Origin: Naegleria gruberi
Taxonomy: Eukaryota
NCBI GenBank assembly: GCA_000004985.1
Contig: GG738847.1
Strand: one strand, 5' to 3'
DNA: 64,000 bases
A program made the position numbers and the translations under genes. The notes beneath the pieces are model-generated. The model had not been told where the DNA came from. It saw only the letters and a program-made list of their open reading frames with translations, and did no database searches. Shown in pieces: positions 4,128 to 51,666 of the stretch (its first letter is position 1; each line of letters starts with the position of its first letter).

Positions 4128-4241
4128 CATTTCAGAATAAGGTTGTTATGAAATATTTCCAAAAAAAATTCCAAAAATAAATCAGACGAAACTGTAATTA
4201 CAAAATCAAATATTAATTGTGGAAATTGTAAGATCTATTAA

Positions 4242-22900: not shown

Positions 22901-25900
22901 AATAATATTATGCAAGAACTTTTGCAAACAGGTATCAAGAGTGCAAAATCTGAGAGATCATACCAAACACTCTATAATGATTTGAATAATCTTCACAAGT
23001 CCTGCTTTGCTCACTTGTCTCTCAATGATATTTATCACCAATTTTTGAAAAACTGCTGCCTCTCTGGTCATGCCAATTTGGCCTATGATTACATTGTTGC
23101 CAAGTGTATTCTTCCTTTTGATGAAGCTGATGATGTCATATTTGAGGCTACTTCTGAGCTTTTCAACAGTTCTGTGCAACCAACTGATTCTTCCATAATG
23201 ATTGCCGATAAGTGTATCTCACTACACCAAAGCTTACAAAATGAGAAGCACATTTCCCTCTCACAAGAACATAAGTGGAAGAGAGAAAAAGATGTATTGG
23301 CAGCTTTTAGAATGCTTGACAAAATTTATACCAACTATCCTCCAGCATTATTCTTGAAAAAGCATAGCCCTGTTGAAGTAATCAAATACCTAATTGAAAA
23401 TAATACAACAGGAACTGAGGAAGAAAGATTGAAAGAATTTTATGAAATTTCCAAGTTATTGGGTGGAACTGAGCATGATAAGAAGGAAATTAAAAAGTTG
23501 GCTATTGAATCATCTTTGGAGCAGGCTGGCTCAGGAAATATTTCAGTAATCAAGACCCTTATGGAGCAAAATCATACTGGAGTTTACAAAATCTGCTCCA
23601 AGATGAGTATCGACAGCATGTGTGAAATTTCACATGAAGACCGCTTGAAATTTGTAAGTTTTATTCATATATTTATTTAATTTACAATCGAATATAGGCC
23701 TCATTTGCTATCCAAAATTGTGATCCTTCAGAACTTTCTGAAATGATCTCTAACTATGAACTAATTGAATCACAAGAGCTTTTCTCCTCTCGCTCATCCA
23801 TTAAACCATTGACAGAGTGTGTACTTCTTGCCCATCAAGAATTTGAGAAACTGACCAAGACTACCCCATTCAATGCAAACTTTGTAGGTTCATCTCCAAT
23901 TTATTCTAGCAGTTCGGAAGTATCATTCCTCTCCAAGTTTGGCATTTCTTCCAGCTCGTTAGAAATTGAACACCTTCTCAAATTGAAGGCTTCACATATT
24001 AGAAATTGTATAGCTACAGGTACTGATATTTCTCTAGAGTCACTCCTTGAATTTGCAAGCTTGACCCTACTGAATGGTCATATCATTTCATTTGTTTCTA
24101 TACTAATTCAAGTACCTATTGAACAAATTGACCAGGTCAAAAGGTTATTTGACTCTATTCTTTCTTCTCAACCTCGTGAAACCAAGTCAAGCATTGTTGA
24201 AAGAATGCTCAGGGTGTTTAACTTTTACTTTGGACTAAGACTTTTGTTATTGGAAAACCCAGATGGATTGGCTGACTATTATGACGAGCTCAGCATTGAA
24301 GAAACTATTGAAAAGGCTTTAGAATCTGATTTGAAAACCGAATTCAGCTCAATTGTAGATATTTTAACTCTTTATAACGGATTGTTGTACATATGTAGTC
24401 ATTTCAATGAGCTTTCTACTTTATCCAACAACAAGTTGAGCTGTTTGAAATTTATAACCGAGGAGGATTATAGAATCAAGTCTCTTACCTTACTCTCTCA
24501 AACAAGCAACAAGGATCACCTACAAACTGTATTACAAGTGGCCGATAAGTTAAAATTAGGAAAGGATGAATTTTACCTTTGCTACCTGGAAGCAGTCTTG
24601 AAAAATAAGGTCATTTCTCAAGAAGACAAAACTTTCATATTTGAGTTTGTTTCAAACATTAACCGTGAGAAGGTAACCAGCTTATTATTACAATTTATGG
24701 AACCTTCACTTGCCAAAGAGTATGACCTCACAAAGCTTTCCTTCTTGATGGACGTTCTTTTATCGTTAGGAGATGACCAATTCAGAGATCAGAAACTTGT
24801 TCTAGACACCCTCTGTAAAGAATGCAAGGGAATTACCAATAAGGAGTATCACGGAATTCTCAACTCTACTTCTCCAGATTCCCTATTTGACCTTTTACGT
24901 CCATACATTAATCACCAAAATGTAAATACCATATTGGATAGTGTTGAGAAAGTAGTTAAGAATAACGTAGAAAGACCAAGATTTTACCTTTTCATCACTG
25001 AATCATTGTTGACAAGTAACAGCATTGACAATAAGGAAAAACCAACACTGGCAGAAGAGTACATTTGCAAGTTGACCGAGAGTGATATTAGATCTATAGT
25101 AGAAAAGCTTTCATTTAACAATAGTTACAAACTTCCTCATGCTATTCGTATTTCAATCATGAAGAACTCCCTCAATGTTATAACTAATTCTGAGCTCGAA
25201 CATTTTGTTAGAGGCAATATTTTCAGAATGTTGGCAGCCAAGAGAGTATTCCAAAGAGAGGAATTGGATAATTTACTCGGATTATTGGACAAGTATTTTA
25301 AAAACCAAGTTGGATTGACTAGAGTACTTGCCAATATTGCCCTCTGTACTCGAAGCAAAGATATGGTAGAATCAGTTCTTACCGATCTTAAAGAAGAATA
25401 CTCTGATATCTTCTCTGAAAGTAAGACTCCTGGTGAACAACCTTCGTTCCTTTCTACTGACTCCACTAAATCCTATCTGGAAATAGTTGACCAAGTCATT
25501 CAATGCCTAGTGGATCATGCTGAAGAGCTCAGCAATGAAACTGAGACCAATGATGAGGAAGACTTTACACAAGAAGAGCTCGAGAATTTAACATATGAAG
25601 AGGATGGCATATGTTGGCCTCCAAACAATGCTAAGCTTGGATGCACTTACTTGCATATTATTTTGGGCTCTATTAAGGATCTCTCAGACTTGTTCAATAC
25701 CATCCTCTCACATATTGAGCATACCACTAAGAAGGAAGATGACTTCCCTGTAAGAACTAGAATTGCTCTCATTAGAATTATTAGAAAATATAAGAAACCA
25801 CAAACTCCTTCACCTGAAATCAAACAAGAACAAATTGTAATTCAAAAAGAAGATTCTCCAATCATTGGTGAAGTACAAGAACCTAAAGTAGAAACACCTT

Positions 25901-26766
25901 CAACATTAGCTGATCAAGATGAAGACATTCTGTTGGCCATCTATCAGACCAAGGATGCCATTGGTGAAAACTTCCCATTACAAAAGGATGTTTATGCACA
26001 AACACCAAAACCACCAACTGATGAATTCAAAAACATGTTCTCTTCCCTTTTATCATCTACCTCAAATGAAAAACAATTCAAGGCACTTTCATTTATCTTG
26101 AGAATATGGTTCAAGGAGAAGAGACAATGTCAATCATTTTTAGAAGCACTTCTAGTTGACCTTCTTAACACTCTTGTAGATAGAAATGCTAAGGAAGAAA
26201 CAGTGTTGGATATTACTAGAGAGGAAGTCGAACTTTTGAACGAAACGATTGCTAATGATTTCTTTGAAAAGCTATTCAATAAGGGAAGTTATTTCCTCTC
26301 TTTCAAGTTTGCTCTCCAAACTAACCACAAGAATCTTGCTACAAATGTTGTAGAAAAACTCAAATCTCTTGCAGAATCGAACTCAGATTGCTTGGATACA
26401 GAATATATGGGAGTGATCTTTGATGAGTGCATTTCAAAGAATTTAATTTCAAAGCTTTTATCAGACCCTATTATTACCTTACTTTTCAATTGTAAAAAGT
26501 TGAAGTTATCTGAAAATAGTGAAGCTCATTTGATTTCAGAATTGGCACAAAGTGGGCTTAAGAAAAAGGCCACCAATAACCAAACACTATTAGCATGTGA
26601 GTATTTACAAAGAAAGGTGTATGGTATGCACTCTAGATTATGTGATTTGAACAGTGGTCTATTCTTACTGCGAAGATATTTACAACAATGCCAAACTCAT
26701 GTCAAAATTGATAGAAATGCAAAGGAGCAGTGCAGCAGTACATTGAAGAAGCTTGTTACAAAATAA
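19938..26766 (+). CDS. Large four-exon gene encoding about 2,230 aa. Exons: 19938-20581, 20625-22808, 22852-23653 and 23698-26766, with introns of 43, 43 and 44 nt. Tentatively an NBAS/Sec39-like (NRZ tethering complex) protein.
   Basis: Three consecutive plus-strand ORFs are separated by short gaps. Each gap begins GTAAG(A/T) and ends TAG, and the splice restores the frame: ...NSE-R-YDILF; ...ILSK-H-NLSIQL; ...RLKF|ASFAIQN. The N-terminal beta-rich region, the alpha-solenoid remainder and the size fit NBAS. Identity is not verified. Confidence 0.6.
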
Positions 26767-26802
26767 ATCTAGTTTTTCAAAAGTTCCATTTCACTTAAAA
26801 AT

Positions 26803-27812
26803 TTATTCTGAAGGTGATTCCAGAATAATGCTCATGTAATCAGCCATTTCCTTATTGTTAGATTTTTTGTACATTTGAATAATCTTATCCTTGGAATGTT
26901 TAGCAAGTTCCTTGTTTAACTTTTCATTGGAAGAAAATCCCAATGATTTGCAAGTCAAATATAATCCAAAAAGTGCTCTCATGTTTGTTTCACTGTTAAT
27001 ATTAAGTGATTGACTGTAATATTTTCTGGCATTTCTGTAATCTCCAGTGGTGTAAAGAATATCTGCATATTTCAAATGGAAAATATAATTTGCTGGATTA
27101 CTCAAAATCATTTCCTCAATACAGAAAAGAGCATTCTTATATTCAGCATTAGCAAGATAAATATCTGCCAATTCTTCATAAGCTTCCAAATCATTTTGAT
27201 ATATTTTCAAATATTCATTGAGTGCTGTAATACTTTCCTCGATTAAATTTTGCGATCTGAAAATTGCAACCTTTCTCTTGTAAGAGAGAGCATCAGTTGG
27301 ATGATCTTTAAGAATGTCATCATAGATTTGTAATGCTGTTTCGAATTGGTTTTGTGCCTCCATCAAAAGTCCTTCCAATCTTTTTACTCTGAGAGACTCT
27401 CCGAATTGCCCTTGAAGACTAACTAAACATTCCTATATTGTTGTTCCAATCACAATAATTATTTATAATAAATATTATTATTAACAATGTATTATAATAA
27501 ATTAAATAATAATAATAAATTATTACAAGATGATATTTTGTTAAAACATACTTGGGCCACAGTAATATTATTCAAATCAGCAGCTGCTCTCAATAAATGT
27601 TCATAATAATCCCAAACATTGTTTCCAAGTTTTGAGAAGGCTTCACTCTTATGATTATAGAACAAATGTTTTCCGCACTTGAGCACTAAATCAGGTCTCC
27701 TCAGTGAAGATCTCTCACAAACTTCCTTTATAATATCAATACATAGAGATGCTGATGGTTTTCCAACTTGTTTTAATTCCTTCTCGAGTTCGAGCAAGCT
27801 TGGTGTTGTCAT
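26803..27812 (-). CDS. EMC2: ER membrane protein complex subunit 2 (EMC2/TTC35), a TPR protein. Two exons: 27812-27552 and 27432-26803, with a 119-nt AT-rich intron.
   Basis: Exon 2 reads ECLVSLQGQFGESLRVKRLEGLLMEAQNQFETALQIYDDILKDHPTDALSYKRKVAI...NMRALFGLYL. This is co-linear with human EMC2 ([27 protein letters not shown]...RILQEDPTNTAARKRKIAI...NRNMRALFGLYM). Donor GTATGT; acceptor ATATAG. Confidence 0.85.
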
Positions 27813-28827: not shown

Positions 28828-31800
28828 ATGTCCTTGTTTAATGGGTTATCTTCATCGACTAGTATAAATAGCCCATCATCAACTAACAATACACCCCGAG
28901 AAACAAATGATCACAAAGGGGATTTGAGGAAGAGATCTCTCCGAAAAGTGCATGTTGACTTGCCCTCACCTTTGGAAATTAAGAAATTCAATCGAAGTAT
29001 TAGAAATTTAGAAGATTACAAACCTTTCAAAATCGATGAAGGGAATGGCTATTTAACAACCTCTTATTGGTTTGAATTAATAAGTGCATATACGTTGGAC
29101 ATGGAAATATTTCAGACTATTCTAGCTCTTTCGTCTGCTCTCTTTTTTATCATTTCAACATATATTCAATTGGATATTGATGGCAAACTAACAGCTATTC
29201 TAGTAGTGGATTTGATATTTTCCCTTTTATTTATTTTCTTCTTTGTTGTAAACTTCTTCTTGGCTAAGGACAAGTAGGTTTGCTAGTTATTGAAATATTT
29301 CTAACCCTGGAAAATTAGGAAAATGTATTTTTTTCATCCTTTATCAGTATTGGATTATATTACGGTGGTACCTTCACTAACAATTAACACACTTTCAATT
29401 ATAGGAGGTTGGAGTGGGTTGGAGGACATTTATTCATTTGTCGGTTTATTGAGAGTTTTCAGATTGCTAAGGTTAATTCCTCTCATTAAAAAAATTTCAT
29501 CTAAGGGAGATATCAATTCAATTTATGCAAAAGTTGCAGAGCTAGGTCTTACAATTGCTTGTCTTCTTGTTATATTTACCGGTGTTTTTCAGTGGCTAGA
29601 AAATTATTTTGGGACAAATACCAATATTTATTTTCATGATGCATTGTACTTTATAGGTATTACCCTTGTTACAATTGGGTATGGTGATATTGTAAGTGGA
29701 ATGTTATTTGAAAATTGACTTATTCAATGATTTAGACTCCAACACATTGGACTTCTAGGTTTGCTGTTCTATCCTTCTTCATTATTGGTGTTACAATTAT
29801 TCCAATTCAGGTCTCAGGAATTTATGCCATTGTCACAGCAGAGAAAACAATTTTCAAAGTTAAAAACCCTGTGTTAAAAAAACATGCTATTATAACAGGA
29901 CATTGTAGATTAGATGAAGTGTTGGATTTTATCAAAGAATGCTTTCAGTATAAATCAAACGAGGTTGAGAAGATTATTCGTAAGTAATTCTCAACTCCAA
30001 AAATGTTATTTACCTCTAATATGAAATAATACTATAGTATTATTCAATGACCGACCATTTTGTGAATCCTTGACTGATTCTTTGAGAAAGTTTGATTTTA
30101 ACAGTAAAATTCAAGTGCTATTTGGAGAAATTATGGACTTTGAGATTATGTCCTTACTAAAAATAGCAGAGGCTCACAGGTAAGTATTTTAGTGATATGA
30201 GGATAGAATCCATTTTCCTCCTTAAAGTATTTTTTTATTAAATAGTCCAAAGATAGGAAACCCAAAACAGCAGGACACTAATATTATTATGACAACTATT
30301 GCATTGAGAAACTTTAACCCAAAGATTAGCGTTTATGCTCAAATCAATTTAATAGAATCAAAAAATTTGATTCAAAAAGCAGGTGCTAGAGTAATCGTCT
30401 GTTACGAATCTATTTGTTCGAAGGTAATGTCTGCTTGCTCTACAGCTCCAGTATTTTCTTGCTTTCTGTATAATCTACTAAGTGGAGCTGATGTGGATAT
30501 TGAACATGACAAGTTGAAAGACTATGTCTTTTCTGAAAATTTATCGGAACAAGAGAACGACATTAATTGGATTATTGAGTATTCTGATGGAATGAACAAT
30601 GAATTATATCGAGCCAAGTTCAGCCCTGTATTTTATGGAAGTCTATTTATTGATGTTGCTGAATTGTTGAGAAGATCTGATATTACTATCTTTGCGCTGG
30701 AAAGTAATCATACAATTCATATTAACCCATCAGGTCATAGAATCAAGGAGGGTGATAGATGCTACTGTATTGCGCCTTCTATTGAATATGCTGAATTGGT
30801 CGAAAAATTCAAAATATCTGCTGCTGAGCTCTCAAAGTTTAAATCTGGAAAGGAGGAAGAGGAGATTATTGAATACAATCAAACAGAAGAAAATAACGAA
30901 GAAGCCGAGGTATTTGAACAAGAATTTACAGAATATCTAAAACCTGCTAGCTCTTCAAACAGTAGCTCTAACCAACAACAGAAAAAGGTTGATAATGAGA
31001 AATGGGTTTTAAGAAGTCCTAGACTAAGGGTGACACCCAGATTACGTATCAATCAGTTGCTGAGGATGAGAACTGAAACAAATGTTGATATCTCTCTACT
31101 AAGAGATGAGGATGATGATCACAACACTCACTTGGAAATTTTGCTAAAGTTAATTTCTCCAGAATCATACTTTCAAGAAAAACGAAAGTACTTGCAATCT
31201 ATCAGAAATACATTTACAGGAAGTGAGTTGGCCGAAAAGGAGAAGGAATTCTACAGCAAAATTACACAAATTTATAATATGGTAGACCGACCATTCTCCA
31301 AAGATGAGATTTTCATCCAACACCACAAAGATAAGAATATTAGTGATCACCTAATTATTCTTGGAGATTTCAGTCAACCAGCTATTGTGTGCGCATTGTC
31401 GAGATCTCTTCAAAGGCACTCGAGAGATACCCAAATTGTATTAATGACCGATAAGACTGATTATTTGGATCTAATTTACCAAAGATTAAGATACTTTAAT
31501 AAGGTTTATATTATTTTAGGAAATTATTTGAAGACAACACACTTGAGAAGGGCAGGGTTTGGTGTATGCAAGAGAATTTTATTTTTCGCAACTGAGGATA
31601 AGGATAATGAAATTATCAATGAATACACTATTGATTCGGAGGCAATTAAGCTTTCTCTAGGAATTTCAGTCATGGATAAGAGTAAGGGTTATGTTATTGG
31701 TAAGTTTATCATTCACTTTCATTGTTCATCTAAAGAATTCATAGAATTGGTGAATAGAGCTAATATGAAGTTCTTTCAACATCAGGGAATTCCTACTCAT

Positions 31801-32409
31801 TTAAAAGTTAAGAAAATGAGAGAGGATGGTCTTTTAGATTATGATATTGACGAATTTGATCAATTTTGCTTATTTTCTGATTATTACATCTCTGGAAGAG
31901 TATTTCCATCCTCTTCCTTCCTAAGCAAACTGTTGTCTCAATCATTTCACAATAGAAAGATAGTTGACCTAATTGAGCAATTGTGTTCAGATGAATTTAC
32001 ATCAGGCGATCATCAATCTGTTGTAATTGAAGTTCCTCTTCCTTCAGTATTTGTTGGTAAATCAGTTCTCCAATTAGTAACATCGTGCTATCAACACAAT
32101 TTGATATTATTAGCTTTGAGTCGAGTCAAAACAAACAATCCATCCGATAGATACGTTTACACAAATCCTTCGCTCTCTAAAACACTTGTACAAACCGATC
32201 TAGTATTTCTGTGTGGACACAGAAACAATATCAAGAGTCTTGTTGCAACAAGAGGATCTATGGATCGCTTCTTTACAAGATCTTGGACAAGTAATAATCT
32301 ATTCTCATCACCCATTTCTGATAGCTCAGACGATGAAGGTAATGATAATATTCAAGTAGAACGATTCAAATCTGAACAAGAGATAACAATTCAACAGGAA
32401 GAAGTTTGA
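28828..32409 (+). CDS. Slo/BK-type (large-conductance, Ca-activated-like) voltage-gated K+ channel alpha subunit, paralog A. Six exons: 28828-29273, 29319-29691, 29736-29979, 30038-30179, 30246-31699 and 31745-32409.
   Basis: TM segments; S4-like LRVFRLLRLIP; pore helix and selectivity filter TLVTIGYGDI; S6; then a long cytosolic tandem RCK-like region (...DHLIILGDFSQPAIVCALSRS..., ...LLALSRVK...). Every intron begins GTAAGT or GTAGGT, ends AG, and restores homology with paralog B. Intron 5 (31700-31744) is in frame and stop-free, so the ORF track reads through it. Confidence 0.85.
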
Positions 32410-32424
32410 AATGTTTATTGTTAA

Positions 32425-33760
32425 TTAGTCCTGCTCGTGATATAATCTGAAAATAATTTCATCTTTAAGACTTTCTGGAAGTAAAGACAAATTTTCTTTC
32501 CTTTCTGCAATTTGTTTCATATTGTATATTCCAAATTGAATCAGTTTTTCTTTGAGAACAATGGTATCATATTTCTCTAATTCATTTACAAGTGAAAAAA
32601 AATTGTTAGTTCCAATTCTTAACTGTTTTATGCAAAAATCAGCAAGTCTTGGCATTCCATAATAGTGAGAGCATTTGAACACTGGAAAAACTAATCTTGG
32701 AAATGATGAAATCAATTTTCCAATCTTTCCATAACATGATCTGATAACTATTTCATGTAATTTCTCGTCATATATACTAGTATCTATTTCTAGCACATTA
32801 TTTTTCAATTCCTTAAATTCAGATCCACTATTGAAAAGCCCCTCAAAGAAAATAGAGCTTGAGGCAAGAATTGTTTTGTGACAATATAATATTTTCGATC
32901 CAATTTTGATAGAAATGTCGCTTGTCTCTCTTTGATCGAATAAACTACTAATATTCCCTCTTTCGGTACCTTTTTCTTTCAGAATAATTGGCGAAAGTGG
33001 GAGTGGAAGTTTGGAAGCTATTAGTTGTAGATGTTTTTGAATTATTGGGAAGGAGAGTATTGTTGAAGTTCTTTTCATATATTCGGCTGCCATACTAAGC
33101 GAGTATTCAAACATTTGATCCAGTAATGGATTGTTAATTACTGAAATATCTTTAGCATTGGAAACAGTTTCAAGCATTTGGGCAGTACTTTTTTCATCTT
33201 TGAACGATGACATAAACCTGTCTATATTCACTCGTGTAATTTTGATAAAGCCATATCCTTTTATCATTCCCAGAACAACCAACAAATCAACTAAAGCAAA
33301 TGATCTTAATTGAGTAATATCCCTTTCATACATGATTAAATCAACTAATTCCTGAACTATATTTTGTTGATTCAGGTTTAACAATTTCAATACACGTTGA
33401 TTATTAATAACTGAATTATAAAAATCCAAATCCAATACTTTCAACACATATTTACAACATATTATATTGGTTCCCTCAATTAAATCTTGATCATTTCTAA
33501 AATTTATATTCCAACAATACAAATCTCTTCTTGACTTACTTTTTCAATTTAATTCCATTGGGAAATAATTTAGACAAAACATATTCATAAGTGTTTTCAT
33601 CAGCCAAGTGATTAGAATCCGTTGGTGCTGAAGAAGTGGACTCCCTCTTAGTATGCAATGAAACACGTCGTGTAATCCCATTCTTGAGACTTAAACGTTG
33701 TTTTACAATTCCGAGTGCTACTTTTTTCCTACGTCTTTCTTCGTGATGGTTTGCTGGCAT
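32425..33760 (-). CDS. BTB/POZ domain protein. Two exons: 33760-33540 and 33496-32425, with a 43-nt intron.
   Basis: BTB core ...ISIKIGSKILYCHKTILASSSIFFEGLFNSGSEFKELKNNVLEIDTSIYDEKLHEIVIRSCYGKI. Donor AAAAA|GTAAGT and acceptor TTTTAG join ...GIKLKK-NDQDLIEG. Confidence 0.7.
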
Positions 33761-34022
33761 TCGCGTCTTTTTTTTTAAAATTTTTTAACTAAAACATTTT
33801 GGCGCCAACTGGTTCCAAGCAACCAAAAATCAACAATAATTCCTGGAATTGTATTACTTTCAACTAGCAAGAATAATTGTAAACTTAATCTTCTTTTTTT
33901 TCAAATTATTGATTCTTATTGGCTTTGTTCAAGTTCAGAACTGGTGTACTATCAATAAAGCAAAAAACTCTAAAAAAAATCTCTGAATTGGCGCCAAAAT
34001 CCAAGAGGTTCATTCAAAAAAA

Positions 34023-37000
34023 ATGTACAATAAGGCGTTTCAAATAACCTCAACAACGGAGAGGAGAACTAATGGCTCTCGTTCTCCCATTGAACATGAC
34101 AATAATACAACAGACACTAATGACTATCAGAAACATGCTCAAGAATTTAGGAATATGATTTTTCGGAAAGTTCAAAAGGAACAAACTGATGTTAATGGGC
34201 AAATAAGAGATTTGAATGAACGAGTGAGGCTGTCAGAGGGAGTACAGGCGATGGAAATAGAGGAAAAACAGTCTTTTTGGGATATAGTCAAGGACTTTTA
34301 TATTGATGTGGAAATCTTTCAAATGGTGTTATCAATTTTGACTGCCATTTTCTTTATCATTTCGACCTATATCCAATTAGATTTCGGAGAAAGAATGACA
34401 GCCCTTATTATTCTGGACTTGATGTTCTCGTTTATTTTCTCATTCTTCTTCTGGACCAATTTTGTAATGGCCAAAAACAAGTAAGTTGAAATTTGTAGAT
34501 TAGTTGAAACATTGAAACAAAGGAAATTATTCTTTTTTCTTCCCCTCTCGATATTGGACTATATCACAATTATTCCTGCACTCGTTATTAATTTAATAGC
34601 CTTAATCCCAGATGGTTGGGATATTGTCAGTGATGTTTACTCAATTGTATCCATTCTTAGAGTGTTTAGATTGTTGAGAATCATTCCTCACATTAAGAAA
34701 ATTGCACAAGGTGGAGGAGTAAACTCAGTATATATTAAAGTTGCCGATTTGGGACTTACAGTTGCTTGCTTGATGGTTATATTTACAGGAATTTTTCAGT
34801 GGTTGGAAAATTATTTTATGAATAGAGGAATTTACTTTCATGACGCATTCTATTTTATGGGAATTACACTCTTCACTATTGGATATGGTGATATTGTAAG
34901 TTTTAGAATGATAATCATAGAATATTAACATCCTGCCTAGTCTCCTTCACATTGGACATCGAGGCTAACTGTTCTTGTATTCTTCTTAATTGGTGTATCT
35001 CTCATTCCCATTCAAATATCCCAAATTTACGATATTGTCACTTCTGACAGAACTCTTTTTAGAGTTAAAAACTCAACAATTTCTAAACATACCATAATAA
35101 CAGGAAACTGTAGATTGGATGAAGTAATTGACTTTATTAAGGAATGCTTTCAGTACAAGAAAAGAACTGGTAACAAGATTGTTTGTAAGTATCAACCAAG
35201 TGGAATATCAATTGAGCCATATAGTACTATTTAAGGATAAGAAATTTTGTGAAGATTTAGAGGAAAATTTGAAATCGTTCTCATTTCTCAACAAACTACA
35301 TGTTCTACACGGAGAAATAATGGATTTTGAAGTTATGACCTTATTGAGAGTTGGGGAGGCTAGCAGTGTGTTTCTATTAAACAGTCCAAAATCTGATGAC
35401 CCTAAACAACAAGACACTAACGTAATTATGACAACAATCTCTTTAAGAAACTTCAATCCAAGGCTTAAAGTGTATGCCCAAATTAATTTATTAGAATCGA
35501 GAAGTTTGATACAAAAAGCTGGTGCTAAGGTAGTTGTTTGTTACGAGTCTGTTTGCTCAAAGATTATGTCGGCGTGCTCAGCTTCTTCTGTTTTTGGACC
35601 ATTCTTGTATAATCTTCTAAGTGGAGCAGATGTTAAGATTGACTATCGTAAAACTAAACATTATAGATTTTCAAAGAAGATATCTCCAGAAGAGAATGAT
35701 ATTGGATGGATTATTGAATATGCTGAGGGGCTATCATGTGAAATATATAAGGTTCACTTTAGCTCAGTGTTTTATGGATATTTATTCATTGATGTTGCTG
35801 AATTATTGAGAAGGTCTGCTGTTATTATTTTTGCTATTGAATCAAACGGTTTGATTTTTATCAACCCAGCAAAATATAAGATTAGAGAAGGTGATAAATG
35901 CTTTTGCATTGCTCCAAGTATCAAGTATGCAGAGATTGTCGAAAAATATGTCATCTCACAAAAGGATTTGGAAAATATCAAATCAAACAAGGTTGAGGTT
36001 GAAAGAATAGATTATAGATGGGGGTCAAAGCAAGAAAATAACGATATTATGGCTTTTGAATCTCATTTTGTTGATTTCTTACGTCAAAATGAAACCGTAG
36101 AGAAGGAGGAGCCAAAGAAAAAAGCAAGAAAACTCAAGCTCAAACCAAAACTTGATAATACCAAAAAACTCCTCAAAGCAAGAAGTGATAGAGTGGTAGA
36201 CATCCACCTTTTACGGCCAAAAGAGGACGATGAAAAAACTCATTTAGAAATCCTGTTGAAGCTAATTGCTCCTGAGAAGTATTTTAGAGAAAAGAGACAC
36301 TACTTGGAAACTATTAGGAAATTATATACAGGCGAACAGCTTTCTGAGAGAGAAAATAATTTCTATCAAACACTTTGTGATAATTATAACGTTTTGGACA
36401 ATGACAGACCCCAAGAAGAGTTCTTTATCAATAGCTATAAGGACATTGATTTAAAGGACCATCTCATTATTTTAGGAGATTTTAGACAACCTGAAATAAT
36501 TTGTTCAATGACAAGATCATTGCAAAGACATTATCGTTCAGTACCTATTCTTTTCCTAAGTGAAGGCTCAGACGACCAGGTTGAAACAATTTACAACAGA
36601 TTGAAAAAATTCAATTTGGTGTATTTAATAAGAGGAAGCTTATTGAATCATTCAGATTTATCAAAAGCTGGATTCGAGGTTTCCCAATCAGTGCTATATT
36701 TCACAACTGAAGAAGTTGATACCTCGACAAACTCATACAATGAGTACAAGGTTGACGCTGATGCGATCAAACTCTCACTCGAATTTTCAGTTATCAACAA
36801 GACTAAGAATTATGTTATTGGTATGTATTTTGGAATTAGCAATGACAATAACTCTAAATAGAACTTGTAAATAGGGCAAATATGAAATTTTTTCAACACC
36901 AAGGAATTCCAACCCATCTCAAAGTCAAAAAGCTAATGAGAGATCATGTGGTTGATTATGATTTGGATGATTTCGATCAATTTTGCTTATTTTCAGATTA

Positions 37001-37613
37001 TTATATCTCTGGAAAGATTTTCCCATCCTCTTCTTTCCTAAGTAAGCTGTTGGCCCAATCTTATCATAATAAGAGAATAGTAGATATTGTTGATCAATTA
37101 TGTTCGGATGAGTTTTCTGCTGGCGATCATCAATCTGTAATGATTGAAATACCACTTCCATCGTTTTTTGCAAACCAAAGTGTGCTCAATTTAATGACTG
37201 TTTGCTATGATTACAATCTTATTCTCATGGCCCTTAGTAGAGTTAAGGTTAATAGATCGGATGAAAGATACATTTACACAAACCCATCTCTAAAGTGTAT
37301 GTTAAAAGATACTGATGTGCTATTCTTGCTTGGGCATAGACACGATGTCAAAAGTATGTTGGCTGATAAGAAATGCAAAGATAGATTTTTCGAAAAATCC
37401 TGGACAAACAACATGCTTAACAGCGCAGGTAATCTAGGCTCCTCTTCCAACGGGTCAAGCAGTCAACCTAATGTACTAGCAGAGGAGGTAAAACCAATCC
37501 AAAATGAAGAACTAGAGAGGATGGGAACAGTATCCTCAATGCAAGTAGAACGATTCCATTACTCAGATTTTGAAAGCGATTCATCAAGTGACAATGAAGT
37601 ACAAGAAGTTTAA
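34023..37613 (+). CDS. Slo/BK-type K+ channel alpha subunit, paralog B (tandem duplicate). Five exons: 34023-34480, 34523-34895, 34941-35184, 35225-36819 and 36861-37613.
   Basis: Same architecture as paralog A. Filter TLFTIGYGDI, S4 LRVFRLLRIIP and RCK regions are co-linear with paralog A at about 60-70% identity by eye. The intron equivalent to A's intron 4 is absent. Exon 3 is 244 nt in both genes. Confidence 0.85.
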
Positions 37614-37623
37614 CTATTTATTT

Positions 37624-39609
37624 TCAATTTTCTTGATTTTTGGCAGCATCTGATAATTTCAAGTAGAGGTCTGTTAATGAATAAACTTGCTTTTTCTTGA
37701 AATTCTTTTTTTGATCCTTTGGAATGAATTCACTCATTAAATCTTCATCATCGTCTTGCTCCTTCTTTTGAGCATACTCACTAAAGAATCCACTCTTGCG
37801 CTTCTTTTCTGATCCTTTAGAAGCCTTTTGGTTTTCAAAGTTGTACAAATAATCCAGTATAGCAGAGGCACCCATATTCTGGATAGATGGTGATATTTCA
37901 CTTATTCTATAGTGCAAATCTCTCATTTGGTGACATTGCATTGCCTTTTTCACATCCCCTGTGATCAAGTATGATTCTTCTGCATAAATAAATGAAGTTT
38001 TGGATGGGATAATACCATGTCTTAAGCAATCTTCAAAAAAGAAAATACATCTCTCATAATTTTGTTGTCTGTAATAGTAGGAGCTCAGAGTTTTGTAAAT
38101 ATTCTTAGTAAATGGAACGCCCTCTCTTTTCATTTCAGCAATTGTTAATTCAAAAAGTCTGTTAGTAGAAAGTACCTCTCTTGGGAGATCATATGGTTCA
38201 TTGATTGGGTGTGTCTTTTCATCAACTTTAACTCCATGTTGCTTGTAGACAGACATTCTCTTACTTTGAGTGCATAGATATTTACGATTGCTGTCCTTGT
38301 AAAATCGGAGAAGAAGGTTGAAAAATCTGTCAGTATCATCCAATGAGGTTGGTTTGTCTGACATTGAGAGTAAACTATCTTCATCTAGTGGAATAGTACT
38401 ACTAATTTTACCTCTGGTTCTCGGTAACTCATACTTGTAGACAAGATTGATGAGTTGCTTTGCTTGCCTATATTTTTGGTTGAATAGATAAAACTCGAGA
38501 GAGTCACACAACATTCTTAGATATGTTCTATTGTACTTGTGGTTAGCAATCCATTCGTTTCTTTTCATTACAATTAATCTTTCAACTGCAGTAAGATCCA
38601 TATTATGGACAAATGACTCGAAAGTACATCTTAGCTTCAAATATTCTAAATATTTCTTTTCTTTTTCATCTCTGAGTTGCTGTCTTCTTTGTCTTTCAAG
38701 TTCTGATTCACTATCAGTAATTACCTGTCCTTGCTTTGTTTTTTCTGTATTTTCGTCTTTGTTTTGTTTGACCTCGTTTTCTGAAAGAGCTGTGGAAATA
38801 AATCCTTTTTTCATTAGGGCATCCATCTTATCGAGTAATCCTGGAATAGCATCCATTTTCCCCTTATTTGCATAGCACAAAATCAAGGCACGATAAGTAT
38901 CGGGAGTAATATCAATGGTTTGAATTTTCTCAAAAATCTTGTCAATTGTTTCAATTGGCATCTTTTTAGATATTTGCAAATTTTCACCAATAGCACGGAG
39001 GAACCTACTGTAAAATTCTCCTGTTCTTGCTACATCTGGATATTTTACAAAGAAAGAAAGGATTTTTGAGAGTTTTGCTGATTTTGATGATTTGAGGTAT
39101 TTCCTAAAAACATTGTCAATAGCTTCTTCAGTATTATTCATAACCAAAGGTTCCTTTTGAGTGATATCCTTTTGATATTTCTTCACTGCTTCCAAATATT
39201 CCACATTCTCCAAATCTTCACTCTTTGAAATTTTCTTCTTTCTATTCCTACGTTCAACAATATTGACAGTCTCCAAAACAAAGTCCTTGATAGAATCGCT
39301 GGTTTCAGGATCCCTCAACACTTGTTGAATTACATCCTCGGAATTTTGATGTAAACACAGACTAGTGTGATAGGAACGATTTTCGGAAACTCTTAAAATT
39401 TCAGCAACTACTCCATGACCAGAATTTAAACCTCTGTTAGAAGATGAAGCTACAATAGCAGCAATACCACCAGCAACAATCAAATTGTATCGATGATGAG
39501 AACCAAGAGAAGATGACAATATGAATCGCCGCAACATTTTTTTTGCTTTTTTAAAGCCTTTTCTGCAAATGGCGTTTTTTTTGTTGTTCATCAATTTAAT
39601 TTCAGCCAA
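37624..39609 (-). CDS. Alpha-helical repeat (PPR/TPR-like) protein with a predicted N-terminal mitochondrial presequence. Possibly a mitochondrial RNA-binding or mitoribosome-associated protein.
   Basis: N-terminus MLRRFILSSSLGSHHRY is rich in R, S and L. Long helical-repeat body. Ends in a K/E/D-rich tail. Family not confirmed. Confidence 0.5.
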   Translation of the reverse strand: MAEIKLMNNKKNAICRKGFKKAKKMLRRFILSSSLGSHHRYNLIVAGGIAAIVASSSNRGLNSGHGVVAEILRVSENRSYHTSLCLHQNSEDVIQQVLRDPETSDSIKDFVLETVNIVERRNRKKKISKSEDLENVEYLEAVKKYQKDITQKEPLVMNNTEEAIDNVFRKYLKSSKSAKLSKILSFFVKYPDVARTGEFYSRFLRAIGENLQISKKMPIETIDKIFEKIQTIDITPDTYRALILCYANKGKMDAIPGLLDKMDALMKKGFISTALSENEVKQNKDENTEKTKQGQVITDSESELERQRRQQLRDEKEKKYLEYLKLRCTFESFVHNMDLTAVERLIVMKRNEWIANHKYNRTYLRMLCDSLEFYLFNQKYRQAKQLINLVYKYELPRTRGKISSTIPLDEDSLLSMSDKPTSLDDTDRFFNLLLRFYKDSNRKYLCTQSKRMSVYKQHGVKVDEKTHPINEPYDLPREVLSTNRLFELTIAEMKREGVPFTKNIYKTLSSYYYRQQNYERCIFFFEDCLRHGIIPSKTSFIYAEESYLITGDVKKAMQCHQMRDLHYRISEISPSIQNMGASAILDYLYNFENQKASKGSEKKRKSGFFSEYAQKKEQDDDEDLMSEFIPKDQKKNFKKKQVYSLTDLYLKLSDAAKNQEN

Positions 39610-39760
39610 AGATATATTCCTTCACCAATAATCTCCTCTTTTTTACATTGAGAATTGATAAGATAATTAATTTTAATATTTAATTGATGATCCGATGATG
39701 AATTGTAGATTTTAATTTCCCGCCATTTTCTAACGTGCTTCAAATACAATTTTAAAAAAA

Positions 39761-40378
39761 ATGGAATTTGATGGAAGAAGGGAAGTTCAAAAGACTTTGG
39801 CTCTAATAAAACCAGAGGCTGTTGCGAAGGGATATGAGGATGCAATTATGGAGAGAATTATTGATGAGGGATTTACAATTGTGAGGTGGGATAAGATGCA
39901 TTTATCTCAAGAGAAGGTTCAATTATTTTATAGGGAACACGAAGGAAAATCCTTCTTTCCAACACTTATTGAATATATAACGAGTGGACCTTTAATTGTT
40001 CTTGTTTTAGCTAAGCATAATGCTGTTCAAGCTTGGAGAGATTTGATTGGACCAACTGATGTTGAAATGGCAAAGATTTCCTTCCCTAGATCATTGAGAG
40101 CATTGTACGGAACAAGTAAAACTTATAATGCTTGTCATGGAAGCTCAGATCCAGAAGCAGCAAGAAGAGAAGTTAAATTCTTTTATCCAAATATCAATAC
40201 TGATCCAATACTTACTAATTCCGAAGCCAATCAATACATTAGAGAAAATTTAGAACAATATTTAGTGGACGGATTAACAAAGTTAGCAAAAGAAAAACCA
40301 ATCAATCCAGTTGATTGGTTAGCTCATTGGATCTTGGATAATAATCCTAATAGACCTAGAATAGAGATTGAAGAATAA
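39761..40378 (+). CDS. NME5: Nucleoside diphosphate kinase family protein with a C-terminal DPY-30 motif (NME5-like, ciliary/flagellar type).
   Basis: NDK fold motifs (TLALIKPEA...; catalytic region YNACHGSSD matching N..HGSD). C-terminal ...VDWLAHWILDNNP is a Dpy-30-like dimerisation motif, as in NME5. Confidence 0.85.
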   Translation: MEFDGRREVQKTLALIKPEAVAKGYEDAIMERIIDEGFTIVRWDKMHLSQEKVQLFYREHEGKSFFPTLIEYITSGPLIVLVLAKHNAVQAWRDLIGPTDVEMAKISFPRSLRALYGTSKTYNACHGSSDPEAARREVKFFYPNINTDPILTNSEANQYIRENLEQYLVDGLTKLAKEKPINPVDWLAHWILDNNPNRPRIEIEE

Positions 40379-40551
40379 TTGAATTCACTCGAATATTATT
40401 GTAAATAGTCTTTAAAATACATTTGATAAATTGATGTTTCAATTTCAGAGATGATCTATGTTCACACAAAGTACTATGCAACAACTTACTTGTCATTAAT
40501 TTTCGTCAGCTCAACAAGGAGAAATAGTAATACATTAACTAATTAAAAAAA

Positions 40552-41187
40552 ATGTTTCCAATCCTCTTGGGAAGCCACTATAGAATGGTGCTTGGACCAA
40601 CAGCATCAAATCCTTTCAAAAAACTTGACACCCAATATTCGAGAGGAACAAATTATTGGTCACAAGATGCCAATGTCAGGTCGGTTATGGCAGACAAGTA
40701 TCCGAGTTGTGGAACAACAAAATCGTGTAGTTTGAGAAAAGTGAGTAGTAAAAAGATCGGAATCAAATACTGATCACATCTTTAGATTCAAGTTGCAAAT
40801 CCATTTACTGGACAAGTTAAAGTGTATCAGAATGATAATTATTACGCTCATCATACTGCATTTACTGAGTGGGTACTAGTTGGCAAACGAATTGGAGATG
40901 TCATTTCTGGAGATTTATTCAATGTGCCAGATCTTGTAAATTGTAAATTACAAATAACTGGAGCCACCAATTTTACTGGTAAATGCTATCATCCATCTGT
41001 GATGAAAATTGGAGAAACTAAAGTTCTTCTCAAAGCTGGAGATTTTGGATTTCAAAAATGGAGAAGACACAGAGATGGAGAAAGGAGAAGGAAACGAGTG
41101 ATGGGATGTTTTTTTGATCGTACAGTGGCATCAGTTTCTCTGAAATTATGTGAAAGGTGTGAAAATTCAGCGATTGATTACACCTGA
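40552..41187 (+). CDS. Small two-exon hypothetical protein (about 190 aa): 40552-40740 and 40786-41187. It contains QxW-type motifs (YWSQD, FQKW), so it may be a ricin-B/beta-trefoil lectin-like protein.
   Basis: ORF1 ends at AAA|GTGAGT. Acceptor TCTTTAG|ATTCAAG continues in frame into the second ORF (...IQVANPFTGQVKVYQNDNYY...). Confidence 0.4.
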
Positions 41188-41325
41188 AAGAATTAGACGA
41201 AAGAAAAAACAATTACAAGATAGAATGAAGAGAAGTTTGAGGAGAAGTATGGAAAGAAAGGAATTTGAAAGAAAATATAAGAAAAAGTAATTGAAATTTG
41301 AATAATTGTAAAATATTTAAAAAAA

Positions 41326-43080: not shown

Positions 43081-43093
43081 TGAGACATTCTTA

Positions 43094-51592: not shown

Positions 51593-51666
51593 TACCGACA
51601 ATGGGGCTCGAACCCACGACCCCAGGATTAGAAGTCCTGTGCTCTATCCAACTGAGCTATGACGGC
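51593..51666 (-). tRNA. tRNA-Arg (anticodon UCU), 74 nt.
   Basis: Sense strand reads GCCGTCA-TA-GCTC-AGTTGGATA-GAGC-A-CAGGA-CTTCTAA-TCCTG-GGGTC-GTGGG-TTCGAGC-CCCAT-TGTCGGT-A. Cloverleaf has D and T arms, GTTCGAGC T-loop and anticodon loop CU-UCU-AA. The acceptor stem has one G-U pair (1-72) and one U-U mismatch (5-68). Confidence 0.75.

What the first reader, a model, noticed from the sequence alone, without database searches (positions are those of the whole stretch)
28828..37613. Tandem duplicated Slo/BK-type K+ channel genes with an intron presence/absence difference and an in-frame retained-intron signal
Two head-to-tail paralogs, A at 28828-32409 and B at 34023-37613, are separated by a BTB gene on the opposite strand. 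Both encode six-TM channels with an S4 arginine ladder, a TxGYGD filter and a long tandem-RCK cytosolic tail. Their splice sites coincide exactly (for example exon 3 is 244 nt in both). Paralog A also has an extra 66-nt intron (30180-30245) in the RCK1 N-terminal coding region; B reads through the equivalent position. In A, the 45-nt intron at 31700-31744 is a multiple of 3 with no stop. Retaining it would insert 15 aa (KFIIHFHCSSKEFIE), which suggests a possible regulated intron retention or alternative isoform. BK-type channels with RCK gating rings occur in metazoans and various protists. A tandem pair allows heteromeric or sub-functionalised channels.
Basis: seen in the sequence. Interest (0 to 1): 0.5.

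Follow-up and report, generated by a model that had tools for sequence, protein, structure and literature searches.

The report
Tandem Slo-type potassium channel genes, Naegleria
Two neighbouring genes in the amoeba Naegleria gruberi encode intact relatives of the animal "BK/Slo" potassium channels; the pair is real and poorly annotated in the reference, but it is an ordinary lineage-specific gene duplication, and the proposed "retained intron" signal is no more than chance.

Summary
The window is Naegleria gruberi. Both genes exist at the stated coordinates: A is 28828-32409 (1113 aa) and B is 34023-37613 (1140 aa). They are 56% identical and flank a minus-strand BTB gene.

Both proteins have six transmembrane segments, an Arg-ladder S4, a TIGYGD filter and a Slo-type tandem-RCK tail. 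Evidence: Pfam Slo-like_RCK, BK_channel_a and Ion_trans hits; Aplysia BK at E=6e-31; an AlphaFold model that matches BK gating rings. They lack S0, the Mg2+ site and the RCK1 Asp367 equivalent, and the Ca2+ bowl is only partly recognisable.

Four introns are shared in position and phase. The A-only intron is real, but its acceptor is wrong in the finding. Homologs keep (I/V)FLLN, so the intron is 30180-30227 (48 nt), not 66 nt. Six homologous genes lack it, so it is probably a gain.

The stop-free 45-nt intron has about a 0.3 chance expectation, and its peptide is absent from all homologs. It is "retained" only in the truncated reference model NAEGRDRAFT_62424. Gene B has no annotated protein.

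The duplication is specific to the N. gruberi lineage (bootstrap 200/200). It is old (dS saturated) and both copies are constrained (dN/dS at most 0.14-0.25). I score it as a new member of a known kind, of modest interest.

The parts
28828..32409 (+). Slo-like channel gene A. CDS exons 28828-29273, 29319-29691, 29736-29979, 30038-30179, 30228-31699, 31745-32409 (1113 aa).
   Evidence: The splice model gives a single ORF. Pfam Slo-like_RCK, Ion_trans, BK_channel_a and TrkA_N all score above the gathering cut-off. Best PDB match is Aplysia BK, E=6e-31.
29449..29493 (+). Gene A S4 voltage-sensor segment LRVFRLLRLIPLIKK (R194, R197, R200, K206, K207).
   Evidence: Read directly from the sequence. 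The three Arg are in register with Slo1 R207/R210/R213 by inspection; the HMMER alignment here is offset.
29671..29688 (+). Gene A selectivity filter T-I-G-Y-G-D (residues 267-272).
30180..30227 (+). A-specific intron, 48 nt, phase 2, GTAAGT..TTAAAG.
   Evidence: It has in-frame stops if read through. The 48-nt model restores IFLLNSPK, which is conserved in B and all homologs. No intron occurs at this column in B, Nlov_3426, Nlov_3214, P0003, P0004, Nfow_9970 or Wmag_7400.
31700..31744 (+). Intron 5 of gene A: 45 nt, phase 1, in frame and free of stops. Read-through would add GKFIIHFHCSSKEFI.
   Evidence: The position is shared with B (36821-36861, 41 nt, frame-shifting). The peptide is absent from all homologs. 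The intron is retained in the reference model NAEGRDRAFT_62424, which is the plain ORF 30289-32409.
31834..31863 (+). Gene A acidic loop LDYDIDEFDQ (residues 923-932), at the position of the Slo1 Ca2+ bowl.
   Evidence: Alignments to Aplysia and human BK. Conserved as DYD(I/L)D(E/D)FDQ in A, B, P0006 and P0003. mD898 aligns to I/L.
32425..33760 (-). BTB-domain gene. Exon 1 is 33760-33540, the intron is 33539-33497 and exon 2 is 33496-32425 (430 aa).
   Evidence: There is no second copy in the window.
33799..33997 (.). Divergent BTB/gene-B intergenic region holding two exact TTGGCGCCAA palindromes (33799-33808 and 33988-33997).
   Evidence: 0.5 matches are expected in the whole window with up to one mismatch.
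34023..37613 (+). Slo-like channel gene B. CDS exons 34023-34480, 34523-34895, 34941-35184, 35225-36820, 36862-37613 (1140 aa). Introns are 42, 45, 40 and 41 nt. Filter TIGYGD at 34875-34892.
   Evidence: Splice model. Pfam hits. Compared with a 99%-identical environmental contig, 10 of 12 coding differences are synonymous. No annotated protein was found for it.

Best explanation
These are two functional, tandemly duplicated Naegleria gruberi genes. Each encodes a pore-forming subunit of a Slo-family potassium channel: S1-S6 with a charged S4, a TIGYGD filter and a cytosolic tail of two RCK domains. By homology, the tails of four subunits would assemble into a gating ring.

How it most likely works (inferred from homology, not shown): the channel is a tetramer. 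Depolarisation moves S4 (R194/R197/R200, with counter-charges D128 and D161). A cytosolic ligand binding the RCK ring biases the S6 gate, and K+ efflux repolarises the cell.

Ca2+ is the most likely ligand. The equivalents of mE535 and mN449 and an acidic bowl-like loop are kept. However, the channel is not a canonical BK: it has no S0, mD367 is Lys, the Mg2+ site is replaced (K, Q, K) and bowl residue mD898 is Ile/Leu.

Evolution: the duplication arose in the N. gruberi lineage, independently of a dispersed duplication in the N. lovaniensis lineage. It is old and both copies are under purifying selection. Three introns are ancestral to the A/B-type genes of N. gruberi and N. lovaniensis. One more arose, or was kept, in the A/B ancestor. 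A then acquired a fifth intron of 48 nt. The open 45-nt intron is an ordinary intron, and the reference annotation read through it.
For: - Organism and annotation: P0001 (NAEGRDRAFT_62424) is 98% identical and equals the plain ORF 30289-32409.
- Family: Pfam hits above cut-off. PDB phmmer best hits are Slo1, with both RCK1 and RCK2 aligned.
- Fold: the AlphaFold model of the tail has pLDDT 82.6 and pTM 0.81. Foldseek top hits are all Slo1, for example the human BK gating ring at TMt 0.62 and E about 1e-21, followed by Slo3 and Slo2.
- No S0: hydropathy stays below 0 over the first 85 aa.
- Site mapping: with residue roles taken from PMC5677106. Conservation across paralogs.
- Constraint: dN 0.31-0.36 with dS saturated, so dN/dS is at most 0.14-0.25 in every domain. 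Ten synonymous against two non-synonymous differences versus a 99%-identical strain, and 2 substitutions in the 41-nt intron.
- Phylogeny: (A,B) 200/200 and (Nlov_3214, Nlov_3426) 198/200 on 787 columns with heterolobosean outgroups.
- Introns: the position matrix is.
Against: - No transcript or electrophysiological data were available, so the exon models rest on ORF integrity, GT-AG boundaries and homology.
- The ligand is not identified. Half of the canonical Slo1 Ca2+ ligands are not conserved, and the bowl alignment is ambiguous because the loop is about 19 aa longer.
- The S4 register with Slo1 was judged by eye; HMMER aligned it differently.
- The trees are neighbour-joining only. Gene conversion between tandem copies could mimic a lineage-specific duplication, although 4-fold sites are at chance identity (0.366 versus 0.342).
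- Intron gain versus repeated loss is a parsimony argument: one gain against at least three losses.
Confidence: 0.85

Rival explanations
1. The 45-nt intron 31700-31744 is subject to regulated retention. This would give a second channel isoform with a 15-residue insertion in RCK2, just upstream of the bowl-like loop.
For: - The intron is in frame and free of stops.
- In the AlphaFold model of the read-through protein, the fold is kept. The intron-encoded KEFI takes the place of the native GYVI at the start of strand 482-487, and residues 467-480 become a low-confidence loop.
- Intron retention is the dominant mode of alternative splicing in non-animal eukaryotes, including N. gruberi (PMC6142364).
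Against: - The chance expectation is about 0.3, and one of the five 3n introns being open is what chance predicts.
- B's intron at the same site is 41 nt with a stop.
- No homolog has the insertion.
- The intron has ordinary intron composition (27% GC) and GTAAGT..ATAG ends.
- The only 'evidence' for retention is an ORF-style gene model that also lacks the whole channel domain.
Confidence: 0.08
2. The A-only intron is ancestral and was lost precisely from B and from the other homologs, rather than gained in A.
For: Precise intron loss is generally commoner than gain in intron-poor protists (general knowledge). Every gene in this family shows lineage-specific intron differences, so turnover is high.
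Against: On the tree, this needs at least three independent losses: in B, in the ancestor of the N. lovaniensis-type pair, and in subfamily 2 (N. fowleri and Willaertia). The alternative is a single gain.
Confidence: 0.25
3. The first reader's 66-nt intron (acceptor at 30245) is the one used, or both acceptors are used as in-frame alternative 3' splice sites differing by six residues (IFLLNS).
For: Both acceptors are AG and both keep the frame. AAATAG resembles the other acceptors in these genes.
Against: - The six residues are part of a motif that is near-invariant across the Heterolobosea homologs.
- 30227 is the first AG after the pyrimidine tract.
- B intron 1 also uses an AAAG acceptor.
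Confidence: 0.1
4. One of the two copies is a decaying duplicate (pseudogene), or the pair looks species-specific only because gene conversion has homogenised an older duplication.
For: Gene B has no annotated protein in the databases searched. Tandem copies can undergo gene conversion.
Against: - Both ORFs are intact across 5-6 exons, with canonical splice sites.
- dN/dS is well below 1 in all domains.
- B shows 10 synonymous against 2 non-synonymous differences versus a near-identical strain.
- Synonymous sites between A and B are saturated, so there has been no recent conversion.
- The N. lovaniensis paralogs lie on different contigs yet also group together.
Confidence: 0.04

Closest known systems
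Metazoan Slo1 / BK (KCNMA1; Aplysia 5tj6, human 6v22, 3mt5)
   Same: - S1-S6 with a charged S4.
- S2 and S3 counter-charges equivalent to mD153 and mD186.
- A GxGD filter.
- Tandem RCK1-RCK2 tail with the BK_channel_a region.
- Equivalents of mE535 and mN449 are kept.
- This is the best sequence and fold match.
   Different: - No S0 helix.
- The filter is GYGD, not GFGD.
- mD367 is Lys, mE374 is Lys, mE399 is Gln and mN172 is Lys.
- The Ca2+-bowl loop is about 19 aa longer, and mD898 aligns to Ile/Leu.
- There is a long, poorly conserved RCK1-RCK2 linker.
- Only about 15-17% identity in the tail.
Slo3 (KCNU1) and Slo2 (KCNT1) channels
   Same: The same tandem-RCK gating-ring fold (4hpf TMt 0.63; 8hk6 and 5u70 are also hits). 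Slo2 also lacks S0.
   Different: Sequence similarity is much weaker than to Slo1 (KCNT1 E about 1e-13, Slo3 ring 3e-7). Slo2 lacks the S4 Arg ladder that A and B have (general knowledge).
Heterolobosean Slo-like genes: N. lovaniensis C9374_003426 and C9374_003214 (UniRef name 'BK channel'), N. fowleri FDP41_009970, Willaertia magna ABK040_007400, Percolomonas transcripts, N. gruberi NAEGRDRAFT_69603
   Same: The same architecture and the same bowl-like loop and FLLN motifs. Three intron positions are shared with the N. lovaniensis genes, and one (phase 1, after the first RCK1 strand) is shared even with subfamily 2.
   Different: A and B are a tandem pair specific to N. gruberi. N. lovaniensis duplicated the gene independently, to dispersed loci with no shared neighbours. 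Each gene has private introns.
Prokaryotic RCK channels (MthK, E. coli Kch)
   Same: An RCK (Rossmann-type) ligand-sensing ring coupled to a K+ pore. MthK appears as a distant fold hit, and Kch RCK (1id1) is a marginal sequence hit.
   Different: Those channels have one RCK per subunit, with the ring completed by soluble copies. A and B have two fused, diverged RCK domains plus the BK_channel_a segment.
Trypanosoma brucei TbK1/TbK2 heteromeric K+ channel
   Same: A precedent in Discoba for two paralogous K+ channel subunits that work only as a heteromer and set the membrane potential (PMC9799330).
   Different: No sequence comparison was made here. Heteromerisation of A and B is untested.

Membership tests
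Slo family of K+ channels (tandem-RCK, 6/7-TM) | K+ selectivity filter TxGxGD in a P-loop between two pore helices | tested here: met
   TIGYGD in A (29671-29688) and in B (34875-34892). Pfam Ion_trans_2 and Ion_trans score above cut-off.
Slo family of K+ channels (tandem-RCK, 6/7-TM) | S1-S4 voltage-sensor domain | tested here: met
   Pfam Ion_trans covers 93-293. Hydropathy shows S1, S2, S5 and S6 in A, and S3 as well in B; A's S3 falls below the 1.5 cut-off. S4 carries R194/R197/R200 and K206/K207. The equivalents of mD153 and mD186 are kept.
Slo family of K+ channels (tandem-RCK, 6/7-TM) | Two non-identical RCK domains in tandem in the C-terminal tail (gating-ring subunit) | tested here: met
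   Pfam Slo-like_RCK matches two stretches, plus BK_channel_a. HMMER aligns both RCK1 and RCK2 to BK. The AlphaFold tail model (pLDDT 82.6) matches BK, Slo3 and Slo2 gating rings, with TMt up to 0.63.
Slo1 (BK) subfamily | Extra N-terminal S0 helix with an extracellular N-terminus | tested here: not met
   There is no hydrophobic segment in the first ~85-90 residues; the maximum KD(19) is at or below 0.
Slo1 (BK) subfamily | RCK1 high-affinity Ca2+ site (mD367 and mE535 side chains) | tested here: not met
   mD367 aligns to K346 in A, and to Lys or Arg in the other four genes of the A/B clade. mE535 aligns to a conserved Glu. Residue roles are from PMC5677106.
Slo1 (BK) subfamily | Ca2+ bowl (mD898 and mD900 side chains; mQ892 and mD895 backbone) | tested here: inconclusive
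   An acidic loop, DYD(I/L)D(E/D)FDQ, sits at the equivalent place and is conserved. In both HMMER alignments mD898 falls on Ile/Leu, and the loop is about 19 aa longer.
Slo1 (BK) subfamily | Inter-domain Mg2+ site (mD99, mN172, mE374, mE399) | tested here: not met
   mE374 is K352, mE399 is Q380 and mN172 is K147.
Slo family of K+ channels (tandem-RCK, 6/7-TM) | Forms a K+-selective, voltage- and ligand-gated conductance | not testable with these tools
   This needs heterologous expression and patch-clamp recording.
Functional retained-intron (exitron-like) isoform | Intron length a multiple of 3, no in-frame stop, and more than chance would give | tested here: not met
   The intron is 3n and open, but the simulated probability is about 0.30. 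One of the five 3n introns being open is as expected.
Functional retained-intron (exitron-like) isoform | Coding potential of the intron conserved in paralogs or orthologs | tested here: not met
   B's intron at the same site is 41 nt with a stop. The other homologs have neither an intron nor an insertion there.
Functional retained-intron (exitron-like) isoform | Retained transcripts detected | not testable with these tools
   No RNA-seq access. N. gruberi data exist under PRJEB23822.
Lineage-specific tandem gene duplication | Adjacent, same strand, and paralogs closer to each other than to orthologs in sister species | tested here: met
   The genes are 1.6 kb apart on the same strand. (A,B) is supported 200/200 with heterolobosean outgroups. 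There is no tandem partner or shared synteny at either N. lovaniensis locus.

The most novel reading that the evidence does not exclude
The open 45-nt intron of gene A is a genuine regulated retention event. Its 3' end encodes KEFI, which can replace the native GYVI at the start of an RCK2 beta-strand. Retention would then add a tolerated 15-residue loop next to the Ca2+-bowl-like site and give a second, differently tuned channel isoform. Gene A also carries a datable, post-duplication intron gain at 30180-30227.
Probability: 0.07. Interest if true: 0.45.

Novelty: new member of a known kind. Interest (0 to 1): 0.27.

Why it matters
**Annotation.** The N. gruberi reference carries only a truncated, intron-containing 'hypothetical protein' for gene A (NAEGRDRAFT_62424, which has no channel domain). 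It carries nothing for gene B. N. gruberi's complement of excitability genes is therefore under-counted.

**Biology.**
- Slo-type channels (voltage sensor plus tandem-RCK ring) are present across Heterolobosea, in two subfamilies.
- The fused gating-ring architecture is therefore not an animal invention. The heterolobosean versions keep the voltage-sensor charges but not the canonical Slo1 Ca2+ and Mg2+ ligands.
- This makes them useful natural variants for asking which parts of the ring are needed for gating.
- Ca2+ is reported to control the amoeba-flagellate switch in Naegleria (PMC4685582), so a voltage- and possibly Ca2+-gated K+ channel pair is a reasonable physiological candidate.

**Evolution.** The family also gives a small, clean case of intron turnover, including a likely gain after a dated duplication. 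None of this would greatly surprise a specialist.

Tried and rejected
- **Synteny.** I ran tblastn of all ORFs from N. lovaniensis loci L001 and L002 against the window. Only the Slo genes match and no neighbours are shared. The script stopped before L003 and L004 were compared.
- **Duplication unit.** The BTB gene has no second copy in the window, so it was not part of the duplicated unit.
- **Introner or repeat origin of the introns.** blastn-short of all nine introns against the window gave only chance matches of 9-16 nt. The 9-nt AAGTATTTT repeat at both ends of the A-specific intron largely overlaps the donor and acceptor consensus, so I do not treat it as a target-site duplication.
- The full-length channel therefore could not be folded, nor exact transcripts looked up.
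- **Structure prediction.** The first AlphaFold run, on an 8-sequence alignment, was poor (pLDDT 48). It was superseded by the 75-sequence run.
- **Representative search.** The first search failed because the profile exceeded 1200 positions. It was repeated with the tail only.
- **Loci not retrieved.** The loci of NAEGRDRAFT_62424 and NAEGRDRAFT_69603 are not on record in the contig index.
- **Disruption argument dropped.** I had expected retention of the 45-nt intron to break an RCK2 strand. The AlphaFold model shows the insertion could be accommodated as a loop.
- **Literature.** Searches for Naegleria BK, Slo or K+ channels found no paper that describes these genes.


Full report
**Source and gene models**

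The window is AT-rich (about 33% GC) and uses the standard genetic code with very short GT-AG introns. A protein search identified it as Naegleria gruberi. The only N. gruberi hit is NAEGRDRAFT_62424 (P0001, 706 aa, 98% identical), from a contig of 941,567 bp.

Splicing at the canonical sites gives one complete ORF per gene.
- Gene A: exons 28828-29273, 29319-29691, 29736-29979, 30038-30179, 30228-31699 and 31745-32409, encoding 1113 aa.
- Gene B: exons 34023-34480, 34523-34895, 34941-35184, 35225-36820 and 36862-37613, encoding 1140 aa.

In-frame stops 33 and 39 nt upstream support both start codons, and both have an AAAAAAATG context. The proteins are 56% identical over 1092 aligned residues.

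The gene between them runs on the minus strand from 33760 to 32425, with a 43-nt intron at 33539-33497. It encodes a 430-aa protein with a BTB/POZ domain (E=2.9e-10). It is not duplicated elsewhere in the window.

The gene coordinates, the orientation, the BTB gene, the S4 ladder (LRVFRLLRLIPLIKK), the TIGYGD filter and the 244-nt exon 3 are all correct. Four introns fall at identical alignment columns and phases in A and B (phases 2, 0, 1, 1).

One detail is wrong. The A-only intron starts at 30180 as stated, but the acceptor at 30245 (66 nt) would delete IFLLNS.
- B reads SVFLLNSPK at this point.
- Every homolog examined has (I/V)F(L/F/I/V)L(N/T) there. This covers N. lovaniensis, a third Naegleria species, N. 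fowleri, Willaertia and Percolomonas.
- The acceptor at 30227 gives a 48-nt intron, also in frame, that restores AHS-IFLLNSPK without a gap. It is the first AG after the pyrimidine tract TTTTCCTCCTT.

Read-through of this intron hits stop codons, so it is a true intron.

**The 'retained-intron signal'**

Intron 31700-31744 is 45 nt, phase 1 and open. I simulated 45-nt introns with the base composition of these nine introns and GTAAGT..TAG ends. They were free of stops 30% of the time. Five of the nine introns in A and B are multiples of three, and one of those five is open, which is what chance predicts.

B's intron at the same codon is 41 nt, shifts the frame and contains a stop. N. lovaniensis and the third species have neither an intron nor extra residues at this site.

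The reference model NAEGRDRAFT_62424 does contain GKFIIHFHCSSKEFI. However, that model is simply the longest ATG-initiated ORF, 30289-32409. It starts at MTTIALRNF inside RCK1 and lacks the whole membrane domain, so it says nothing about transcripts.

One point in favour of tolerability: in a confident AlphaFold model of that read-through protein (pLDDT 82.6, pTM 0.81), the fold is intact. The intron-encoded KEFI substitutes for the native GYVI at the start of a beta-strand, and residues 467-480 form a low-confidence loop. Retention is therefore not excluded, but nothing positively supports it.

**What the proteins are**

- Pfam gives Slo-like_RCK (two stretches), Ion_trans, Ion_trans_2, BK_channel_a and TrkA_N, all above the gathering cut-off in both proteins.
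- The best solved-structure relatives by sequence are Aplysia and human Slo1 (E=6e-31 to about 1e-27), then Slo2.2 (about 1e-13), then Kv channels for the membrane part only.
- The tail model matches Slo1 gating rings best. Examples are human 6v5a and 3mt5 at TMt 0.61-0.62 and E about 1e-21. Slo3 (4hpf, TMt 0.63) and Slo2 follow.
- Hydropathy shows no membrane segment before S1, at about residue 92 in A and about residue 96 in B, so there is no S0.

**Functional residues**

I mapped Slo1 functional residues through the HMMER alignment to Aplysia Slo1. Residue roles come from Zhou, Yang and Lingle 2017 (PMC5677106).

| Slo1 residue | Role | Gene A equivalent |
|---|---|---|
| mD153, mD186 | voltage-sensor counter-charges | D128, D161 (kept) |
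| mE535, mN449 | Ca2+ site and inter-site residue | E527, N430 (kept) |
| mD367 | RCK1 Ca2+ ligand | K346 |
| mE374, mE399, mN172 | Mg2+ site | K352, Q380, K147 |

The three S4 arginines line up with mR207/R210/R213 by inspection; HMMER's local alignment there is offset.

In RCK2, YVIELVNRANMKFF aligns with PIITELVNDSNVQFL. About 19 extra residues follow, and then an acidic loop, LDYDIDEFDQ (A) or VDYDLDDFDQ (B). This loop aligns with LDQDDDDDPD. In both alignments the key mD898 falls on Ile/Leu.

So these are Slo-family channels, but not canonical Ca2+- and Mg2+-activated BK channels. Ca2+ sensitivity is plausible but unproven.

**Evolution of the pair**

N. lovaniensis has two homologs on different contigs. 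One is C9374_003426. The other is C9374_003214, whose 2166-aa model looks fused to a downstream RCC1/EGF gene. A third Naegleria assembly (SRR29240419) has orthologs of both (87% and 90% identical in the shared columns). None of the neighbours at the N. lovaniensis loci occurs in this window.

A profile search of 1.84 billion representative proteins found 899 relatives at E<=1e-3, but only 12 at E<=1e-30. The closest are heterolobosean: Willaertia magna, N. fowleri FDP41_009970, Percolomonas, and a third, more distant N. gruberi gene, NAEGRDRAFT_69603.

With these as outgroups (787 ungapped columns, neighbour-joining, 200 bootstraps):
- A and B group together 200/200.
- The two N. lovaniensis genes group together 198/200 (the smaller data set agrees).

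The tandem duplication is therefore specific to the N. gruberi lineage, and independent of the dispersed duplication in the other lineage.

The duplication is old. dN is 0.31-0.36 and synonymous sites are saturated: 4-fold sites are 36.6% identical, against 34.2% expected from composition. dN/dS is at most 0.14-0.25 in the membrane core, RCK1 and RCK2.

A metagenome contig 99% identical to window 36370-42674 (L007) gives within-species evidence for B. It has 10 synonymous and 2 non-synonymous differences in 1203 coding nt, and 2 differences in the 41-nt intron.

**Intron history**

By alignment column:
- Three introns are shared by A, B and both N. lovaniensis genes. One of these (phase 1, just after the first RCK1 strand) is also shared with N. 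fowleri FDP41_009970.
- Intron 5 is shared only by A and B.
- One intron is shared only by the two N. lovaniensis genes.
- Each of A, C9374_003426 and C9374_003214 has private introns.

The A-specific intron site is intron-free in B, in both N. lovaniensis genes, in their two orthologs in the third species, in N. fowleri FDP41_009970 and in Willaertia. One gain is more parsimonious than at least three losses, so I favour a post-duplication gain in A (about 0.65-0.7). Its sequence has no relatives in the window.

**Verdict**

The finding is real and mostly accurate as an observation. It describes a lineage-specific tandem pair of Slo-family K+ channel genes that the reference annotation largely misses. 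Both genes are intact and constrained.

Two corrections apply. The A-only intron is 48 nt (30180-30227), and the in-frame intron is not a signal. Heteromerisation is possible; the TbK1/TbK2 heteromer in trypanosomes is a Discoba precedent (PMC9799330). It remains untested.

No paper in the searchable library describes these Naegleria channels. Automated annotation already names the N. lovaniensis homologs 'BK channel'. I rate this a new member of a known kind, with modest interest.

Noticed in passing
window 33799-33808 and 33988-33997: Two exact copies of the palindrome TTGGCGCCAA lie in the 262-bp divergent intergenic region between the BTB gene and Slo gene B. Only 0.5 matches (with up to one mismatch) are expected in the whole window. 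With their flanks they read TTTTGGCGCC and GGCGCCAAAA, which matches the E2F consensus TTTSSCGC as I recall it. No copy lies upstream of gene A.
   Followed up: partly
window 30289-32409 versus 28828-32409; 34023-37613: The reference protein NAEGRDRAFT_62424 is only the longest ORF of gene A. It lacks the channel domain and reads through a 45-nt intron. Gene B has no annotated protein in the 5.8-billion-protein collection; only an ORF fragment from a metagenome (P0018) is present.
   Followed up: yes
window 30182-30190 and 30225-30233: A 9-nt direct repeat, AAGTATTTT, sits just inside the 5' end of the A-specific intron and across its 3' splice site. It largely overlaps the donor and acceptor consensus, so it is probably not a target-site duplication, but it is worth checking if more gained introns are found.
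   Followed up: partly
window 32409/32425 and 37613/37624: Both Slo genes converge on minus-strand neighbours, with only 15 and 10 nt between the stop codons. The 3' UTRs must therefore overlap the neighbouring genes.
   Followed up: no
window 4229-5122: A tandem array with a period of 72/144 nt (about 11.5 or 6 copies, 69-74% matches). By eye the unit translates on the minus strand to a 24-residue leucine-rich-repeat-like unit (…NISDNDFGDEGAKYISELKQL…).
   Followed up: no
window 14788-15303 and 15988-16080: Low-complexity tandem repeats with periods of 12/39/36 nt and 9 nt (unit CTTCTTTTC). They probably encode a Glu/Lys-rich stretch on the minus strand.
   Followed up: no
window 51593-51666 (minus strand): A tRNA-Arg(TCT) gene.
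   Followed up: no
L007 (ENA metagenome ERZ929261, 6469 bp) versus window 36370-42674: An environmental metagenome contig is 98-99% identical to this part of the window. A very close relative of the sequenced N. gruberi strain is therefore present in that sample. There is a gap or rearrangement of about 160 nt near window 41145.
   Followed up: partly
L002 10001-17206 (N. lovaniensis C9374_003214): The 2166-aa model joins a Slo-like channel to RCC1/WD40-like and EGF domains through a 322-nt intron, far longer than the 47-63-nt introns in the rest of the gene. It is probably a mis-fusion of two genes.
   Followed up: no
window 32365-32409 and 37545-37613 (C-termini of A and B): Both tails carry a QVERF(K/H) motif 15-20 residues before a C-terminus that ends in E-V. 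The rest of each tail is unconserved.
   Followed up: no
window 20593-27378 and 37624-45172: The neighbours are ordinary eukaryotic genes: a KNTC1/Rod-like ARM protein, EMC2, an NDK + Dpy-30 (NME5-like, flagellar-type) kinase, an RNase T2-like protein and a weak Cpn60/TCP1-like protein.
   Followed up: partly
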